Shown: positions 31,043 to 37,601 of the stretch, piece by piece | Layout: every line of letters begins with the position of its first letter | How positions within the stretch are numbered: the stretch's first letter is position 1 | NCBI GenBank assembly: GCA_902592345.1 | Contig: CACJEE010000002.1 | Span: 37,749 to 101,748, forward strand | Length of the DNA: 64,000 nt | DNA from: an uncultured Alphaproteobacteria bacterium | GTDB taxonomy: Bacteria > Pseudomonadota > Alphaproteobacteria > HIMB59 > GCA-002718135 | Direction: 5' to 3' | Program-made: the position numbers and the translations under genes | The notes under the pieces: generated by a model | What the model saw: only the letters and a program-made list of their open reading frames with translations | What the model was told of the DNA's origin: nothing | Database searches by the model: none

Positions 31043-32590
31043 TTATTTTTTCAAATAGTTTTTAATATCAGTAATTGTTATGATTTTTAATATAAATATT
31101 ATTATCCCATAAATTACTGCAGTGATAATAATAGTAAGCACCAAATAGAATATATTATTTAGAATATCCACTGAATATAATTGAGCAAAAAAGAAAATTT
31201 CTAAATACCGGATAGTAAAAACAAGTATAATTAAGGATAGTAGTAATTTGAGTATATTGGTTAAAAAATGACCATCCAAATCTATGCTTTGTCTACCGAT
31301 CAGTATAATAAAAAGTAAAAGAGCGTTTACCCAAGCACTAATGGCTGTTGCCAAGGCTATTCCCATCTCTCTCATTGTGCTTATTAATGCAAGGGATAAA
31401 ACAATATTGGTAATCACACTGATGATTGAAATATACAAGGGAGTTTTTGTATCTTCTCTCGCAAAAAAACAAACAATCAAAACTTTAATCAGTACATATG
31501 CTGGAAGACCAAGAGCAAAATATCCAAGAACATTAGAGGTATAAAGAGTATCTTCTTTGGTAAAGGCACCCCTCTCAAATAAGATATGAACAATAGGTAA
31601 GGATAAAATATATAAACCAATAGCGGATGGGATAGATATTAATAATGCAAATTCCAAAGATCTATTTTGTAATTTCTTTGTCATCTCATTATTATCTGAC
31701 TTAATAGCTTTTGATAAACCCGGTAATAAAACTATACCAAGGGCAATACCAAATATTGCCAAAGGTAATTGATTCAAACGATCTGCATAATACAAATGAC
31801 TTATTGCTCCAATAGGAAGAAAAGAGGCAATGATTGTTCCGATAATAATATTTAATTGGATAACTCCGGACCCAATAACTCCTGGAATAAATAATCTAAA
31901 AAATTTTCGTAACCTCTCATTCAACTCTGGAAATTTTAATTTAGGTTTATAAAAAGATAAAGTTGATCGGTACAAAAATAAAAACTGTCCAATTCCTCCT
32001 ATTAAAACACCGATCGACAGAGCATGACCAGCAGAACTTACATACGGTGTAATAATATAAAGAGAGAGAATAAAACTGATATTTAAAATAGCAGGAGCAA
32101 AAGCACCTGCAGCAAATCGTTCATGCACATTGAGGATTGAAGTAAAGTGTGCAGCTAAGGAAATAAAAATTAAATATGGAAAAATTATTTTCCCAAAATA
32201 GACAGCTAAATCAAAAGCTTCACTATTTATAGGAAAACCTGGTGCCAGTATTTGTATAATATAGGGCATCCCAAAAAAGAAAATGATAGTTAAACCCACC
32301 GTAACAAAAAGTAATAATGACATGGTGTTCTCCACAAAATCCGCTGCTTCATGATCATCTTTAGAATCAATCACAATGCCTGAGAAAACAGGGACTAGTG
32401 CAGCGCTATAAGCACCTTCTGCCAAAACACGCCGAAAGAAATTAGGAATACGAAAAGCTACAAAGAACGCATCTGCTGTTACGGTCGATCCAAGAAAACG
32501 TGCAATTAATATGTCACGAACAAAGCCTAAAATCCTACTAAGGAGCGTATAAAAACTAACAGTAAAAAATGACCTAAAGAGTGACTGCAT
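31043..32590 (-). CDS. murJ: Lipid II flippase MurJ (MviN)
   Basis: 515 aa polytopic protein, N-terminal [19 protein letters not shown]. Confidence 0.9.
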
Positions 32591-32735
32591 TATCTAATTT
32601 TATATTGTGATGAGTGATTTGTATAAATTTTATTTGTGTCCCAATTTAGTTGAAAAGCACTAAATCTATTGTTTTTTTATAATCTCATTCAAATATATCC
32701 TTGAAAATATAGATTTGATTAGTATTAAGAATGTT

Positions 32736-32819
32736 ATGAAAAATGAAAATCCTAACCCACCTAAGTGTGGCTGTAGCTGTAGCTGTTGTTGTACTTGTGA
32801 AGGTGGAGGGTGTTGTTAG
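32736..32819 (+). CDS. Candidate 27-aa cysteine-rich microprotein (metallothionein-like): MKNENPNPPKCGCSCSCCCTCEGGGCC
   Basis: ATG..TAG ORF translated by hand, below the ORF-track cutoff. 9 Cys, all TGT. G+C-rich patch inside an AT-rich spacer. The stop codon lies inside a hairpin. No strong SD. Confidence 0.4.
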   Translation: MKNENPNPPKCGCSCSCCCTCEGGGCC

Positions 32820-32841
32820 ATTAACACCCTAAAGTTCCACC
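32802..32841. terminator. Two-tier hairpin shared by the convergent micro-ORF and znuA
   Basis: GGTGGA-GGGTGTT-(8 nt loop)-AACACCC-taaagt-TCCACC. A T-rich tail is present on the + strand only. Confidence 0.5.
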
Positions 32842-32859
32842 TTCTTAAATTATTTAATA

Positions 32860-34029
32860 TTAACAACCTTTAAGTTCATTACCTAAATTACTTATCAATT
32901 TAAAGTAAAGATCTTTATCAGAATTAATATTTGCTCCAAGAGGATCAAAGACACCCGTTTTGATATTAGTGTCCTCTGCAATTGTTGAAATAATCTTTGG
33001 ATTAAATTGAGGTTCAGAGAAAATACAATTAATTCCCCTGTCTTTAATTACATCCTGAATTTCATCAATTTGTTTAGCCCCAGGTAAAACATCAGTATTT
33101 AATGTTAACGCTCCTGCTGCCCTGACACCAAAACGCTCTTCAAAATATTGATACGCATCATGGAACACAACAAATTTTGCGTCCTTATTAATATCTTTAC
33201 TGACATCTTTAATCAGTTGATCAAGTGCAATAATTGTTGCCTCAGCATTAGCTTCATATTTATCCTTATTCGCGGGATCTAAATCACCTAATTCGTGAGC
33301 AATTTCGTGAACCATTTCTTTGGCATTACTTGGATCTAACCATATGTGAGCATCAAACTCTCCATGGTTATGGCCTTCATGTCCAGCATGATCATCGTGA
33401 TCGTCGTGGTCGTCATGGTCTGCGTGATCATCGTGATCATCGTGATCTTCATCATGGTCTTCATCGTGATCATCATGGTCGTCGTGATCATCGTGATCGT
33501 CGTGATCGTCGTGATCATCATGGTCATCATGGTCATCATGATCGTCGTGATCTTCATCATGGTCATCGTGATCGTCGTGGTCGTCATGGTCATCATGGTC
33601 ATCATGGTCATCACCATGGTCATCGTGATCGTCATGATCATCATGGTCACCATAGATACTTTCTTCTCTAAATTTTAACTTTTCAATGCTGTCAACTTCC
33701 ATAAACTCAACAACTTCAGCATTTTTAACAATGGACTCAAGAGGTCTTTCCATAAAAGTTTCAATGCCTTCACCAACCCAAAATATAATATCAGCTTCTT
33801 CAAGAAGTTTTGCATGAGAAGGTTTTAACGTAAAGCTATGTGGAGATGTACTGCCTTCAATTATTAATGACGGTTCACCAACACCATCCATAACATTCGC
33901 AATTAATGAATGTAGAGGTTTTATAGTGGTAACAACTTTTATTTCTGCTCGTACAGGCGCTGTAGCAATAAGCAAAAAAGAGAAAATTGTTACTTTTAAT
34001 AAGTTTAGTAGATAATTATTCTGTTTCAT
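32860..34029 (-). CDS. znuA: Zinc ABC transporter substrate-binding protein ZnuA with giant His/Asp loop
   Basis: Cluster A-I SBP. Signal peptide MKQNNYLLNLLKVTIFSFLLIATAPVRA. Start set at ATG 34029, because the longer track ORF would cover the Zur box. Confidence 0.9.
   Translation of the reverse strand: MKQNNYLLNLLKVTIFSFLLIATAPVRAEIKVVTTIKPLHSLIANVMDGVGEPSLIIEGSTSPHSFTLKPSHAKLLEEADIIFWVGEGIETFMERPLESIVKNAEVVEFMEVDSIEKLKFREESIYGDHDDHDDHDDHGDDHDDHDDHDDHDDHDDHDEDHDDHDDHDDHDDHDDHDDHDDHDDHDDHDEDHDEDHDDHDDHADHDDHDDHDDHAGHEGHNHGEFDAHIWLDPSNAKEMVHEIAHELGDLDPANKDKYEANAEATIIALDQLIKDVSKDINKDAKFVVFHDAYQYFEERFGVRAAGALTLNTDVLPGAKQIDEIQDVIKDRGINCIFSEPQFNPKIISTIAEDTNIKTGVFDPLGANINSDKDLYFKLISNLGNELKGC
33358..33650 (-). 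repeat. Coding low-complexity repeat: ~100 residues of (D-D-H)n in ZnuA
   Basis: Imperfect 9-bp periodic gat/gac-cat/cac DNA. Translation GDHDDHDDHDDHGDDHDDH...DDHAGHEGHNHGE. Confidence 0.9.
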
Positions 34030-34068: not shown

Positions 34069-34083
34069 TGTTATAATATAACA
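34069..34083. promoter_or_regulatory. Zur box in the znuA | znuC divergent promoter
   Basis: Perfect 7-1-7 palindrome TGTTATA-A-TATAACA. It matches the core of the proteobacterial Zur consensus (ATGTTATAnTATAACAT) as recalled. Confidence 0.75.
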
Positions 34084-34103: not shown

Positions 34104-34844
34104 ATGGATCAAAATAAATTACTAGTTAAATTAGAAAATGCAGGTGTCTATAGGTCTTCTAAATGGCTTGTAAGAGGTATTTCTCTTGAAATAAATCAAG
34201 GTCAAATTGTAACGCTTATTGGACCCAATGGTTCTGGAAAAACAACTACAGCCAAAATGATTTTAAATATTTTGAATACAGATGAAGGTCTTGTGAAAGG
34301 AAATGCCAATAAGATGGCATACGTTCCTCAGAAAATTAATATTGATTGGACGATGCCTCTGCGTGTCATTGATTTTATGAAAATCACAAGCAGCCTTAAT
34401 AATACTCAGATCACTGAGTCCTTAGTTATGACAGGCGTAGATAAATTACTTTATAATCAAATCCATAGTTTGTCAGGTGGTGAATTTCAACGTGTGTTAA
34501 TTGCAAGAGCGATAGCAAAAAAACCAGATCTATTAGTATTAGATGAACCTGTTCAGGGAGTTGATTTTAATGGGGAGATAGCCCTCTATAATCTTATCAA
34601 AGAAATTTCTGTTAACTTAAATTGTGGTATCTTATTAATTTCGCATGATATGCATTTTGTCATGTCTACTACCGATCACGTTATCTGTTTAAATGGACAT
34701 ATATGTTGTTCTGGATCACCAAGCAATGTTGTAAAAAATCCAGAGTATATAAAATTATTTGGTGAACATAACTCAGAGACCTTATCTTATTATCAACATC
34801 AACACGATCATTCACACAATCATGATGGAAGTATATCTAAATAA
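34104..34844 (+). CDS. znuC: Zinc ABC transporter ATP-binding protein
   Basis: Walker A GPNGSGKTT, LSGGEFQR, LVLDEP. His-rich C-terminal tail YYQHQHDHSHNHD. Confidence 0.9.
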   Translation: MDQNKLLVKLENAGVYRSSKWLVRGISLEINQGQIVTLIGPNGSGKTTTAKMILNILNTDEGLVKGNANKMAYVPQKINIDWTMPLRVIDFMKITSSLNNTQITESLVMTGVDKLLYNQIHSLSGGEFQRVLIARAIAKKPDLLVLDEPVQGVDFNGEIALYNLIKEISVNLNCGILLISHDMHFVMSTTDHVICLNGHICCSGSPSNVVKNPEYIKLFGEHNSETLSYYQHQHDHSHNHDGSISK

Positions 34845-35647
34845 TGTTTGATGATTTTTTTATTCGCGCATTAATTGCAGGTATAGGCATTGCTATTGTA
34901 ACTGGCCCTCTTGGATGTCTAGTGATATGGCGAAGGCTCTCATATTTCGGCGATACTTTATCACACTCAGCCTTACTCGGTGTGACATTAGCTTATGCTT
35001 TTAGTATTAATATATCTCTATCAGTATTTATCATATCTGGAACAGTGGCATTACTTCTACTCAGTTTACAAAAAAGAACAAAGTTAGCGGGAGACTCATT
35101 ACTTGGGCTTCTTGCGCATTCAACTCTAGCGATAGGTCTTGTATTAATTGGTTTTCTATCCTCTATTCGTTTTGATTTAATGGGATTATTATTTGGAGAT
35201 ATATTGGCCGTCACTGTTGAAGATATTTTTATTGTTTGGTTTGGTGGATTAATCATTTTAGGAATATTATTTTACATTTGGAAATCAATATTTGCCGCGA
35301 CTGTTAATTATGATTTAGCAGCTGCTGAGGGAATGAAGCCGGATCTATCTAATTTTATTTTTACTCTACTTCTTGCTGGTGTAATTGCTATTTCGATAAA
35401 AATGATTGGGGCCTTACTTATAACAGGCTTACTTTTAATACCTGCTGCTACGGCAAGAAGCTTAAGCAGTAATCCACGTCAAATGGTTATACTATCAATT
35501 TTAGTAGGAATTATCTCAGTAATATTGGGTTTATTTAGTTCGTTAGAGCTTAATACAGCCTCAGGTCCATCAATCATTGTTGCCGCATTAGTGTTATTTA
35601 TTCTTTCATTAATATCATTTAAAAGAAGCGGCGCATTGCAAAAATGA
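34844..35647 (+). CDS. znuB: Zinc ABC transporter permease
   Basis: 267 aa ABC-3 family permease. 1-nt overlap with znuC. Confidence 0.9.
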   Translation: MFDDFFIRALIAGIGIAIVTGPLGCLVIWRRLSYFGDTLSHSALLGVTLAYAFSINISLSVFIISGTVALLLLSLQKRTKLAGDSLLGLLAHSTLAIGLVLIGFLSSIRFDLMGLLFGDILAVTVEDIFIVWFGGLIILGILFYIWKSIFAATVNYDLAAAEGMKPDLSNFIFTLLLAGVIAISIKMIGALLITGLLLIPAATARSLSSNPRQMVILSILVGIISVILGLFSSLELNTASGPSIIVAALVLFILSLISFKRSGALQK

Positions 35648-35670
35648 AAACAATTTGATATCTAAATAGT

Positions 35671-36069
35671 ATGGCTCTTTCAGCAGAAAAATTAACAAAC
35701 AACCAACAAACGGTTCTAGATTTATTAGAAAAATCAAAAGAACCATTAAAAGCATATGCCATTCTTTATGATACACAAAAAAAAGGAATTAAAGCGCCAC
35801 TTCAAGTCTACAGAGCTTTAGATAAGCTCATTGAAATTGGTAAGGTTCATAAAATAGAGAGTAGAAATTCCTATATGGCTTGTGAGCATAAAAATTGTAA
35901 CTCATCGACATCTACATCTTTTTTAATTTGTGAAACATGTGATCAGGTGAGTGAATTAAAACAAAAGAATTTACCTTCCTATTTTGCAAAACAAAGCGAG
36001 CAGGCTGATTTTAAATACGCAAAACATAATTTAGAAATTTATGGTACTTGTAAAGATTGTACTAAATAG
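35671..36069 (+). CDS. zur: Fur-family zinc uptake regulator
   Basis: 132 aa winged-helix N-terminus, Cys pairs CEHKNC, CETC and CKDC. Follows znuCB. Confidence 0.8.
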   Translation: MALSAEKLTNNQQTVLDLLEKSKEPLKAYAILYDTQKKGIKAPLQVYRALDKLIEIGKVHKIESRNSYMACEHKNCNSSTSTSFLICETCDQVSELKQKNLPSYFAKQSEQADFKYAKHNLEIYGTCKDCTK

Positions 36070-37115: not shown

Positions 37116-37601
37116 CTACTTTTTCTTTTGTAATTCCTTTTTTAATTTAGGCCAATCATCATCACTTAGAATATAGCCAACACATTTTTTAGAACCACAT
37201 TTACAAATATGTTCTTCAAAATCACTATCAAATGGGTAGCCATAATTATAGGTTAATTCTGTATATTTTTTTATTCTCTTTATTGAGGATATCCAAATTT
37301 CATTATTTGTTATTTCAACCTCACAATTTGGATCACACGAATGATTAATGAATCGAGCATAATTACGAGCAACACCTCCATCAATGTCATATTTTTTATT
37401 TAATTCAAAAACATAAACCATGCCGTTTTTTTTATTTTTTTGTGCTTTTTTAATTTGTTTATCTGCTCTTTTATCACCTTCTTTTTTTGTTACCTTATCA
37501 CCAATATATTGAATAACTTGTTCAGCTTTTTTTATATCACGGTTCGCAAATAGCCCTGAACCGTGTAGTGATGATTTTTTTTTATACCATGATTTTTTCA
37601 T
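37116..37601 (-). CDS. SET-domain protein (putative lysine methyltransferase)
   Basis: GSGLFA, FINHSCDPNC, ELTYNY and post-SET CKCGSKKC. Confidence 0.85.
   Translation of the reverse strand: MKKSWYKKKSSLHGSGLFANRDIKKAEQVIQYIGDKVTKKEGDKRADKQIKKAQKNKKNGMVYVFELNKKYDIDGGVARNYARFINHSCDPNCEVEITNNEIWISSIKRIKKYTELTYNYGYPFDSDFEEHICKCGSKKCVGYILSDDDWPKLKKELQKKK

What the first reader, a model, noticed from the sequence alone, without database searches (positions are those of the whole stretch)
32736..32819. Unannotated 27-codon Cys9 micro-ORF (minimal metallothionein candidate) beside the zinc-uptake locus
Hand translation gives MKNENPNPPKCGCSCSCCCTCEGGGCC. Nine of the last 17 residues are Cys, in CxCxCxCCCxC...CC spacing with no aromatic residues. 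This composition resembles the smallest known metallothioneins, such as the ~25-aa, 7-Cys fungal Cu-MT, rather than the ~55-aa bacterial SmtA/BmtA type. The ORF is a local G+C-rich patch in an otherwise very AT-rich 269-bp spacer and ends inside a stable hairpin. It lies about 40 bp from the 3' end of znuA. It is too short for the ORF track and would be missed by standard gene callers. A thiolate-cluster metal buffer would be notable in an organism that also depends on reduced sulfur. Alternatives are a small RNA, a (TGT)n-like simple repeat, or a Cys-sensing leader.
Basis: partly seen in the sequence, partly recalled or inferred. Interest (0 to 1): 0.8.

Follow-up and report, generated by a model that had tools for sequence, protein, structure and literature searches.

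The report
Conserved 27-residue nine-cysteine micro-protein gene
A tiny gene that annotation misses, encoding a 27-amino-acid peptide with nine invariant cysteines, is conserved under strong purifying selection in about 110 genomes of the abundant ocean bacterial order HIMB59/AEGEAN-169. It most likely makes a minimal metallothionein-like metal-binding peptide, but metal binding is untested.

Summary
Window 32736-32819 (+) reads MKNENPNPPKCGCSCSCCCTCEGGGCC*. It is a 43% GC island in a 22% GC spacer, 40 bp from the znuA stop, and its end lies in a hairpin.

It is a real coding gene. About 111 species-level genomes of order HIMB59 carry it in two subfamilies:
- A, 27 aa, family GCA-002718135 (the window's type).
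- B, 26 aa, MDNNKPKPDCGCSCSCCCTCGDGCCQ, family HIMB59.

Variable sites fall mostly on third codon positions. dN/dS is about 0.03-0.16 in regions the search patterns did not constrain. Serine codons are AGY in A and TCN in B. All nine Cys are kept in 65 of 69 hits found by an N-terminal anchor alone. No RNA structure is conserved.

It is monocistronic, with a promoter-like site ending 5-11 nt before the ATG, so the mRNA may be leaderless. It has no co-oriented downstream gene, so it is not a leader peptide.

In subfamily A it always converges on the 3' end of the zinc cluster (znuA, or znuA-COG0523-WD40-DUF1636). In B it does not. No Zur box precedes it. It has no detectable homologue in Pfam, NCBIfam, PDB or 1.84 billion protein representatives.

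It meets the compositional definition of a metallothionein. The function is inferred, not shown.

The parts
32736..32819 (+). Micro-gene: 27 codons plus TAG, MKNENPNPPKCGCSCSCCCTCEGGGCC. A 10-residue polar, proline-rich N-terminus is followed by a 17-residue domain with Cys at positions 11, 13, 15, 17, 18, 19, 21, 26 and 27.
   Evidence: Searches give the sequence. It is conserved in about 111 genomes. Third-position variation and dN/dS of 0.03-0.16 come. An N-anchored, pattern-free test found 65 of 69 hits with all 9 Cys.
32701..32728 (+). Promoter-like site: TTGAAA (32701-32706), 16-nt spacer, TATTAA (32723-32728). It ends 7 nt before the ATG, which implies a leaderless or nearly leaderless mRNA with no Shine-Dalgarno sequence (inferred).
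   Evidence: Read directly. An equivalent TTGnnn-16/17-TAnnnA site ends 5-11 nt before the ATG in every unrelated upstream context of both subfamilies. The strict consensus scan did not report it, because the last base of the -10 hexamer is A.
32799..32844 (.). GC-rich hairpin whose 5' arm is codons 22-27 plus the stop. It is probably a bidirectional terminator shared by the micro-gene and the convergent znuA.
   Evidence: It is present only where znuA is the direct neighbour (and in L005, with compensatory changes). It is absent where WD40 or DUF1636 is the neighbour, and those genomes have Asp (GAT) instead of Gly (GGG) at residue 25.
32860..34029 (-). znuA, the periplasmic zinc-binding protein, convergent with the micro-gene. 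It carries a (DHD)n loop of about 100 aa.
   Evidence: Pfam ZnuA, E = 2.9e-55; ORF list.
34069..34083 (.). Palindrome TGTTATAATATAACA in the znuA/znuC divergent promoter region, a likely Zur operator (inferred). No comparable site precedes the micro-gene.
   Evidence: A related palindrome lies upstream of the Fur-family gene in L007.
34104..36069 (+). znuC (34104-34844), znuB (34844-35647) and a Fur-family regulator, probably zur (35671-36069). These are the rest of the zinc-uptake locus.
   Evidence: Pfam ABC_tran, ABC-3 and FUR.
31043..32590 (-). murJ, divergent from the micro-gene. This neighbour is variable: in most relatives the upstream gene is pirin instead.
   Evidence: Pfam MurJ; context table.

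Best explanation
Window 32736-32819 is an independent, monocistronic, protein-coding micro-gene. It is a single-copy gene shared by both families of the order HIMB59 (AEGEAN-169). It is transcribed from its own promoter, which ends 5-11 nt upstream of the ATG, so the mRNA is probably leaderless. In the window it ends at a hairpin shared with the convergent znuA.

The product is a cytosolic 27-residue peptide. Its nine invariant cysteines (CxCxCxCCCxC, a Gly-rich hinge, then CC) most likely wrap one metal-thiolate cluster. The stoichiometry could be M(II)3Cys9, like a vertebrate MT beta-domain, or a Cu(I)4-6 cluster, like the Neurospora mini-MT. The peptide would then act as a minimal metallothionein that buffers or stores Zn, or sequesters Cu or Cd.

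Shown: the ORF, its conservation, selection on the amino-acid sequence, its stand-alone architecture and its linkage to the zinc cluster in one family. Inferred: the promoter and leaderless start, translation itself, metal binding, and which metal is bound.
For: Coding status:
- Two subfamilies occur in about 111 species-level genomes.
- Variable columns by codon position are 5/5/22 in A and 1/3/22 in B.
- Pooled dN/dS is 0.045 and 0.043, and 0.03-0.16 in regions the search patterns did not constrain.
- Between A and B the Cys domain is saturated at synonymous sites (pS 0.89) while pN is 0.16. Both Ser codons switch from AGY to TCN.
- The frame is intact in 66 of 68 N-anchored hits.
- No RNA structure is conserved: consensus -0.3 kcal/mol with 2 pairs. 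There is no Rfam hit.

Stand-alone gene: in every context the upstream gene is divergent and the downstream gene convergent. A promoter-like site is present in all contexts.

Metallothionein-like features: 33% Cys in CxC and CC motifs, no aromatic residue or His, about 2.7 kDa, and all 9 Cys plus G12 and G23 invariant. The size and cysteine spacing are comparable to the 25-residue, 7-Cys, Cu6 Neurospora MT (PMC7614390). Nine Cys also form the Zn3Cys9His cluster of a Pseudomonas MT (PMC7387436).

Zinc link: in all resolvable subfamily A contexts (about 70) the gene abuts the 3' end of znuA or of znuA-COG0523(CobW)-WD40-DUF1636. This holds even though the upstream neighbour changes between murJ and pirin.
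Against: - No transcript, peptide or metal-binding data exist.
- There is no homology to any MT family or to anything else.
- No Zur box or other recognisable metal-sensor operator precedes the gene.
- In subfamily B the neighbours are a methyltransferase, a proteasome-type hydrolase, a circularly permuted ATP-grasp enzyme and SulP, none of them zinc genes.
- The zinc linkage in A could be a single inherited synteny rather than functional coupling.
- The promoter motifs lie in AT-rich DNA, where such hexamers are common.
- The dN/dS values are pooled over phylogenetically non-independent pairs of a 27-codon gene.
Confidence: 0.5

Rival explanations
1. It is a real translated micro-protein whose cysteines serve something other than metal buffering. 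Options include a thiol redox buffer or ROS scavenger for a high-light surface-ocean organism, a sulfur or persulfide carrier or store, or a small Fe-S or other cofactor-binding peptide.
For: The evidence for coding status is the same as for the best explanation. No metal-sensor operator is present. Subfamily B has no metal-gene neighbours. AEGEAN-169 is abundant in ultra-oligotrophic, high-irradiance gyre surface water (abstract of PMC11366302).
Against: All nine Cys positions and the Gly hinge are strictly invariant. That fits a defined cluster geometry better than bulk thiol content. There is no CxxC redox motif and no ferredoxin-type spacing. The zinc-cluster linkage in subfamily A would be left unexplained.
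Confidence: 0.2
2. It is the precursor or substrate of a peptide-modifying system (RiPP-like or peptide-tagging). In subfamily B genomes this could be the circularly permuted ATP-grasp and NTN (proteasome-type) hydrolase genes next to it.
For: In about 30 subfamily B loci the gene is convergent with a proteasome-family gene that sits beside a CP_ATPgrasp_2 gene. Cys-rich short peptides are typical RiPP cores (my own knowledge).
Against: In subfamily A no modifying enzyme is nearby; the neighbours are pirin, SpoU, murJ and the zinc cluster. The 10-residue N-terminus is too short for a usual leader. The B neighbours are on the opposite strand, and in some B loci other genes (C16, SulP) are inserted on the upstream side. 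No radical-SAM, MNIO, YcaO or lanthipeptide enzyme was seen in any context.
Confidence: 0.07
3. It is a cis-acting regulatory ORF: a Cys-codon-rich leader whose translation senses Cys-tRNA charging and controls the overlapping hairpin, and so read-through antisense to znuA.
For: Nine Cys codons in 17 and a hairpin overlapping the stop codon look like an attenuator.
Against: No co-oriented downstream gene exists in any of about 111 contexts. The hairpin is absent in most contexts, with z of about +0.4 to +0.7. The non-Cys residues (NPNPPK, G12, S14, S16, T20, G23) are also under purifying selection. A and B share the peptide but not the flanks.
Confidence: 0.03
4. It is not a gene: a chance ORF in a (TGY)n-like simple repeat, a non-coding RNA, or just the znuA terminator region.
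For: The ORF is very short, is not called by gene finders, and overlaps a terminator-like hairpin. An alternative-frame ORF (32743-32832) is also open.
Against: dN/dS is about 0.04, third-position variation dominates, and the Ser codon family switches between subfamilies. No RNA structure is conserved and there is no Rfam hit. The alternative frame loses its ATG in the common Gln4 variants, and the observed variation falls on its second codon position. The element is conserved where its flanks are unalignable (L028).
Confidence: 0.02

Closest known systems
Fungal single-domain Cu-metallothionein (Neurospora crassa MT1: 25 residues, 7 Cys, Cu(I)6)
   Same: It is a single mini-domain of about 25 residues, rich in CxC motifs interspersed with Gly and Ser, with no aromatic residue or His and no signal peptide (PMC7614390 for size, Cys count and metal).
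   Different: The window peptide has nine Cys rather than seven, a CCC triplet and a C-terminal CC pair, and a Pro-rich N-terminal tail. It is bacterial. The metal it binds is unknown.
Bacterial metallothioneins of the SmtA/BmtA/Pseudomonas type (Pfam Metallothio_Pro)
   Same: These are bacterial cytosolic Cys-rich metal buffers. Nine Cys form the Zn3-4 cluster in SmtA and PflQ2 MT (PMC7387436). In marine cyanobacteria they belong to zinc homeostasis (PMC3323870, title and abstract only).
   Different: They are about twice as long, use His ligands, and have a zinc-finger-like fold with aromatic residues. There was no Pfam or NCBIfam match even at E <= 10. No SmtB-type repressor gene lies adjacent here.
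Beta-domain of vertebrate metallothionein (about 30 residues, 9 Cys, M(II)3Cys9)
   Same: The Cys count (9) and domain size match, and CxC motifs are present. This makes an M3S9 cluster stoichiometrically plausible (my own knowledge; for the alignment).
   Different: There is no homology (E = 0.13). The vertebrate domain never occurs as a free-standing gene product, and the Cys spacing differs.
Mycobacterial MymT (Cu(I)-binding small MT)
   Same: It is a small bacterial Cys-rich peptide that gene annotation overlooked until it was studied functionally, and it protects against copper (PMC7387436).
   Different: MymT is about 53 residues (my own knowledge) and contains His. It has no sequence relationship to the window peptide and comes from a different phylum.

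Membership tests
Metallothionein (operational definition) | Low molecular mass (below about 10 kDa) | tested here: met
   27 residues, about 2.7 kDa.
Metallothionein (operational definition) | High Cys content arranged in CxC, CC or CxxC motifs | tested here: met
   9 of 27 residues (33%) are Cys, arranged CxCxCxCCCxC...CC. All 9 are invariant in 65 of 69 hits found without constraining the core.
Metallothionein (operational definition) | Aromatic residues absent or scarce | tested here: met
   No F, Y, W or H in either subfamily consensus.
Metallothionein (operational definition) | High metal content bound in metal-thiolate clusters | not testable with these tools
   Needs the peptide itself, studied by ESI-MS, ICP-MS, UV or 113Cd NMR.
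Any established MT sequence family (Pfam and NCBIfam MT models; PDB MT chains) | Significant sequence or profile match | tested here: not met
   Pfam and NCBIfam gave 0 families at E <= 10. PDB phmmer gave 0 hits at E <= 10. Exhaustive phmmer over 1.84e9 representatives found only the family itself.
Bacterial SmtA/BmtA-type MT | About 55 residues with His co-ligands and a zinc-finger-like fold | tested here: not met
   27 residues, no His, no Metallothio_Pro match.
Transcription-attenuation leader peptide | A co-oriented regulated gene downstream, plus conserved alternative terminator and antiterminator structures | tested here: not met
   The downstream gene is convergent in all contexts. The hairpin is present only in znuA-adjacent contexts. 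No structure is conserved.
RiPP precursor | A co-localised maturase conserved across family members, and a leader peptide long enough for recognition | tested here: inconclusive
   There is no modifying enzyme near subfamily A. A CP ATP-grasp and an NTN hydrolase lie near subfamily B, but on the other strand. The N-terminal part is only 10 residues.
Zur regulon member | A Zur operator palindrome in the promoter | tested here: not met
   The only Zur-like palindrome in the locus is at 34069-34083, between znuA and znuC. None lies upstream of the micro-gene.

The most novel reading that the evidence does not exclude
The peptide is the smallest bacterial metallothionein yet found and founds a new MT family. 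It would be a free-standing single-cluster Cys9 domain, translated from a leaderless mRNA. It would be a core gene of the whole order HIMB59/AEGEAN-169 and would work with the ZnuABC/COG0523 zinc system as the cell's zinc (or Cd/Cu) buffer. It would then contribute to trace-metal quotas of an abundant oligotrophic-ocean bacterioplankton group.
Probability: 0.4. Interest if true: 0.8.

Novelty: new variant of a known kind. Interest (0 to 1): 0.68.

Why it matters
Only two bacterial metallothioneins have had their biological function investigated (PMC7387436). None is known from marine heterotrophic bacterioplankton.

This 26-27-residue Cys9 peptide is kept under strong purifying selection in streamlined genomes of about 1.4-1.9 Mb (PMC10734472 Table S1). 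The order can reach several percent of cells in gyre surface waters (PMC11366302 abstract). A conserved gene of this kind implies an important function that every annotation pipeline misses, because the ORF is below gene-caller length cut-offs.

If it binds metal, it gives a directly testable handle on how these cells buffer Zn, Cd or Cu at picomolar free-metal levels. The test needs only a synthetic 27-mer. It would also be a minimal natural scaffold for metal-thiolate cluster chemistry.

Independent of function, it is a clean example of a core micro-protein hidden in an intergenic spacer, with its 3' codons doubling as a terminator arm.

Tried and rejected
- Rfam at a permissive threshold over 32000-33500 gave only chance-level eukaryotic snoRNA and miRNA hits.
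- The consensus promoter/terminator scan found nothing at the ORF. The promoter-like site was found by eye and then checked across contexts.
- Pfam, NCBIfam and PDB sequence searches of the peptide returned nothing.
- The search for homologous proteins refuses queries under 40 aa. The 51-aa stop-to-stop translation recovered only mis-started calls of the same family. The exhaustive representative search gave the same result.
It was tightened.
- The metagenome scan for further subfamilies, requiring a residue before Cys1 whose second codon base is not A, returned only repeat junk.
- Viral contigs gave 0 hits.
- I tested for Zur-box regulation. The apparent half-site AATGTTAT overlapping the start codon is not conserved in relatives.
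- My early impression that the ORF travels with murJ rather than znuA was wrong. The context table shows the opposite.
- The alternative-frame hydrophobic ORF 32743-32832 was rejected.
- The look-up of encoding contigs returned only GOS DNA metagenome contigs, so it gave no expression evidence.
- Literature searches for the motif, for SAR11 metallothionein and for smallest or minimal metallothionein found nothing relevant.
- Structure prediction was not attempted. The peptide is under the 30-aa limit, and AlphaFold does not model metal clusters.
- I did not determine whether the two cultured strains (HIMB59, LSUCC0245) carry the gene.

Full report
**1. The observation**

Window 32736-32819 (+) reads ATG...TAG and translates to MKNENPNPPKCGCSCSCCCTCEGGGCC.
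- Nine of the last 17 residues are Cys. There is no aromatic residue and no His.
- The ORF lies in the 269-bp spacer between murJ (31043-32590, -) and znuA (32860-34029, -). It is antisense to both, divergent from murJ and convergent with znuA.
- Its stop ends 40 bp from the znuA stop.
- It is 42.9% GC, against 21.6% for the rest of the spacer.
- Codons 22-27 and the stop form the 5' arm of a hairpin at about 32799-32844 (-25.7 kcal/mol, z = -4.4).
- From the window's codon composition, a run with at least 9 Cys codons in 17 is expected about 3.5e-5 times.

Every factual element of the finding is confirmed.

**2. It is conserved, and as a protein**

I fetched murJ loci from one-genome-per-species collections, which does not bias for the ORF. 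The ORF was intact upstream of murJ in 15 relatives and frameshifted in one low-coverage MAG (L009). The intact set includes L028, whose MurJ is only 70% identical and whose flanks cannot be aligned.

A degenerate DNA scan for the Cys core then found 117 stretches, about 111 distinct contexts. Nearly all are marine single-cell genomes. They fall into two subfamilies:
- A, 27 aa: MKN[QE]NPNPPKCGCSCSCCCTCEG[GE][GD]CC.
- B, 26 aa: MD[NTS]NKPKPDCGCSCSCCCTCG[DE]GCC[QSN].

The evidence for selection on the amino-acid sequence is as follows.
- Among 38 (A) and 27 (B) unique DNA versions, variable columns by codon position are 5/5/22 and 1/3/22.
- Pooled Nei-Gojobori dN/dS is 0.045 and 0.043.
- The core pattern constrains part of the sequence, so I repeated the test on regions each search left free. 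A scan anchored only on the N-terminal ten codons returned 69 stretches. Of these, 65 keep all nine Cys, one has C11F plus E22K, one has S16G plus T20A, two have single-base frameshifts near the 3' end in G runs, and one is cut by the locus edge.
- In that N-anchored set, codons 11-27 give dN/dS 0.035, with variable columns 3/3/14. The N- and C-terminal parts of the core-anchored sets give 0.03-0.16.
- Between A and B the Cys domain is saturated at synonymous sites (pS 0.89) while pN is 0.16. Both serines use AGY in A and TCN in B. That switch preserves the amino acid but not the nucleotides.
- RNAalifold finds no shared structure: -0.3 kcal/mol, two pairs, no covariation. Rfam has nothing.
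- The overlapping alternative-frame ORF (32743-32832) is a by-product of (TGY)n. Its ATG disappears in the common Gln4 variants, and the observed variation falls on its second codon position.

**3. Who has it**

Table S1 of PMC10734472 gives the taxonomy.
- Subfamily A genomes (for example AG-447-P14, whose MurJ is 98% identical to the window's, and AG-893-E11) belong to GTDB order HIMB59, family GCA-002718135, genus AG-337-I02.
- Subfamily B genomes (AG-404-P08, AG-917-M08, AG-390-I07, AG-337-P20) belong to order HIMB59, family HIMB59.

The gene therefore spans both families of the order known as AEGEAN-169 or former SAR11 subclade V (PMC10308909). It is not Pelagibacterales in the strict sense.
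- Each genome shows one copy.
- By a by-eye cross-tabulation, about 41 of 66 genomes with a murJ locus also show the gene somewhere. These are mostly partial single-cell assemblies (completeness 55-93% for the six genomes read from Table S1), so that fraction is compatible with a core gene.
- Nothing with this core turned up in viral contigs.
- Outside these two subfamilies, the metagenome scan found only repeat artefacts.
- In about 15 billion predicted proteins, only nine entries contain the peptide. All were called from spurious upstream starts or extended by a frameshift. The family is effectively invisible to annotation.

**4. Anatomy and context**

In all contexts the upstream gene is divergent and the downstream gene convergent, so there is no co-oriented gene to regulate.

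Subfamily A:
- The downstream partner is always the 3' end of the zinc cluster. It is either znuA itself, as in the window, or DUF1636 or WD40 at the end of znuA-COG0523(CobW)-WD40-(DUF1636).
- The upstream partner changes between murJ and pirin-SpoU-petAB.
- In the window the cluster continues with a palindrome TGTTATAATATAACA (34069-34083, likely a Zur box), then znuC, znuB and a Fur-family gene.
- No such palindrome precedes the micro-gene.

Subfamily B:
- The neighbours are a SAM methyltransferase (or an unknown gene plus SulP) upstream.
- Downstream are a proteasome-type hydrolase and a circularly permuted ATP-grasp gene.

Promoter: a sigma-70-like pair, TTG(A/T)(A/T)N, 16-17 nt, TA(T/A)(T/A)NA, ends 5-11 nt before the ATG in every context, although the upstream sequences are unrelated. 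In the window it is TTGAAA at 32701-32706 and TATTAA at 32723-32728. Together with the lack of a consistent Shine-Dalgarno sequence, this suggests a leaderless mRNA. That is an inference from AT-rich DNA, not a demonstration.

Hairpin: the GC-rich hairpin over the stop codon exists only where znuA is the direct neighbour, and in L005 with compensatory changes. Those genomes have Gly25 (GGG). Where WD40 or DUF1636 is the neighbour, residue 25 is Asp (GAT) and there is no stable hairpin (z of about +0.4 to +0.7). The hairpin is therefore a local terminator, probably bidirectional and shared with znuA, that happens to overlap the coding sequence. It is not a defining part of the element.

**5. 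What it most likely does**

The product has four notable features:
- a polar, Pro-rich 9-10-residue N-terminus;
- a 17-residue block with nine invariant Cys;
- invariant Gly12 and Gly23, and a Gly/Asp/Glu hinge before the terminal CC;
- no signal peptide and no hydrophobic segment.

This meets every compositional criterion of a metallothionein. It is closest in format to single-domain mini-MTs such as Neurospora MT1 (25 residues, 7 Cys, six Cu(I); PMC7614390). Nine thiolates match the M(II)3Cys9 stoichiometry of the vertebrate beta-domain (my own knowledge). They also match the nine Cys of the Zn3Cys9His cluster of a Pseudomonas MT (PMC7387436).

Strict conservation of each Cys position argues for a defined cluster rather than generic thiol content. 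The persistent position at the edge of the zinc-uptake and COG0523 cluster in one family points to Zn. The CxC-rich, His-free composition is more typical of Cu(I)-thioneins. I cannot decide the metal.

Against the MT reading:
- There is no homology to any MT family.
- There is no metal-sensor operator.
- There are no zinc neighbours in subfamily B.
- The A-family synteny may be one inherited arrangement rather than functional coupling.

I put about 0.95 on a real, translated, selected micro-protein gene and about 0.5 on the full statement that it acts as a minimal metallothionein.

**6. Rivals**

- A thiol redox, sulfur-carrier or cofactor peptide (0.2) is not excluded.
- A RiPP-like substrate of the ATP-grasp and NTN-hydrolase genes seen next to subfamily B (0.07) is unlikely, because subfamily A has no such neighbours.
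- A Cys-sensing leader (0.03) contradicts the context and hairpin results.
- A non-coding element (0.02) contradicts the selection results.

**7. Novelty and verdict**

No paper in the searchable library mentions the motif, or a metallothionein in SAR11 or HIMB59. Only two bacterial MTs have had their biological function investigated (PMC7387436). Getz et al. describe AEGEAN-169 as differing from SAR11 in trace-metal transport (PMC10308909).

This is a new, order-wide micro-protein family. If it binds metal it would be a new MT family and the smallest in bacteria, so I rate it a new variant of a known kind. Interest is substantial (0.68), because it is unexpected, conserved in an abundant ocean lineage, and directly testable with a synthetic 27-mer. 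The function remains inferred.

Noticed in passing
window 33330-33680 (within znuA, - strand): ZnuA carries an unusually long (about 100 aa) His/Asp-rich (DHD)n loop encoded by a triplet-repeat tract. Its length varies among relatives: the cluster median is 336 aa, against 389-412 aa here. The repeat also creates three spurious ORFs of over 100 aa in other frames.
   Followed up: partly
window 34069-34083: A perfect palindrome, TGTTATAATATAACA, lies in the short znuA/znuC divergent intergenic region and is a likely Zur operator. A Fur-family gene (35671-36069) follows znuCB. L007 has TGTAATGTTATAACATTACA in front of its Fur-family gene, in the position where other genomes have the micro-ORF.
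   Followed up: partly
window 32591-32660 (- strand, upstream of murJ): The 60-70 nt directly upstream of murJ (TTATACAAATCACTCATCACAATATAAAAT...) are conserved even in relatives with only 70% MurJ identity and otherwise unalignable spacers. The stretch contains a promoter-like TATACA-17-TAAAAT, but the conservation is stronger than a promoter alone would need.
   Followed up: no
loci L096, L185, L253 and about 30 others (subfamily B): The micro-gene is convergent with a proteasome-family (NTN hydrolase) gene next to a circularly permuted ATP-grasp type 2 gene. This is a gene pair of a predicted peptide-ligase system, and no link to the peptide is shown.
   Followed up: partly
subfamily A loci, e.g. 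L213, L227, L195: Downstream of znuA many genomes carry COG0523 (CobW/CobW_C), a WD40 beta-propeller protein and DUF1636. A bacterial WD40 protein embedded in a zinc/COG0523 cluster is unusual.
   Followed up: no
window 32799-32819 and relatives: Residue 25 is Gly (GGG) where the coding sequence doubles as the arm of the znuA-side hairpin. It is Asp (GAT) where no hairpin exists. This is an amino-acid polymorphism that tracks an overlapping RNA or DNA structure.
   Followed up: partly
L236 (AG-337-F02) and L009/L298 (casp150-mb.224): Two genomes have single-base indels in G runs near the 3' end of the ORF. One is annotated in NCBI as a 47-aa protein (P0008). These may be assembly errors or real pseudogenes.
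   Followed up: no
window 37116-37601 (- strand): A 161-aa SET-domain protein (Pfam SET, E = 2e-23) is encoded in this streamlined bacterial genome.
   Followed up: no
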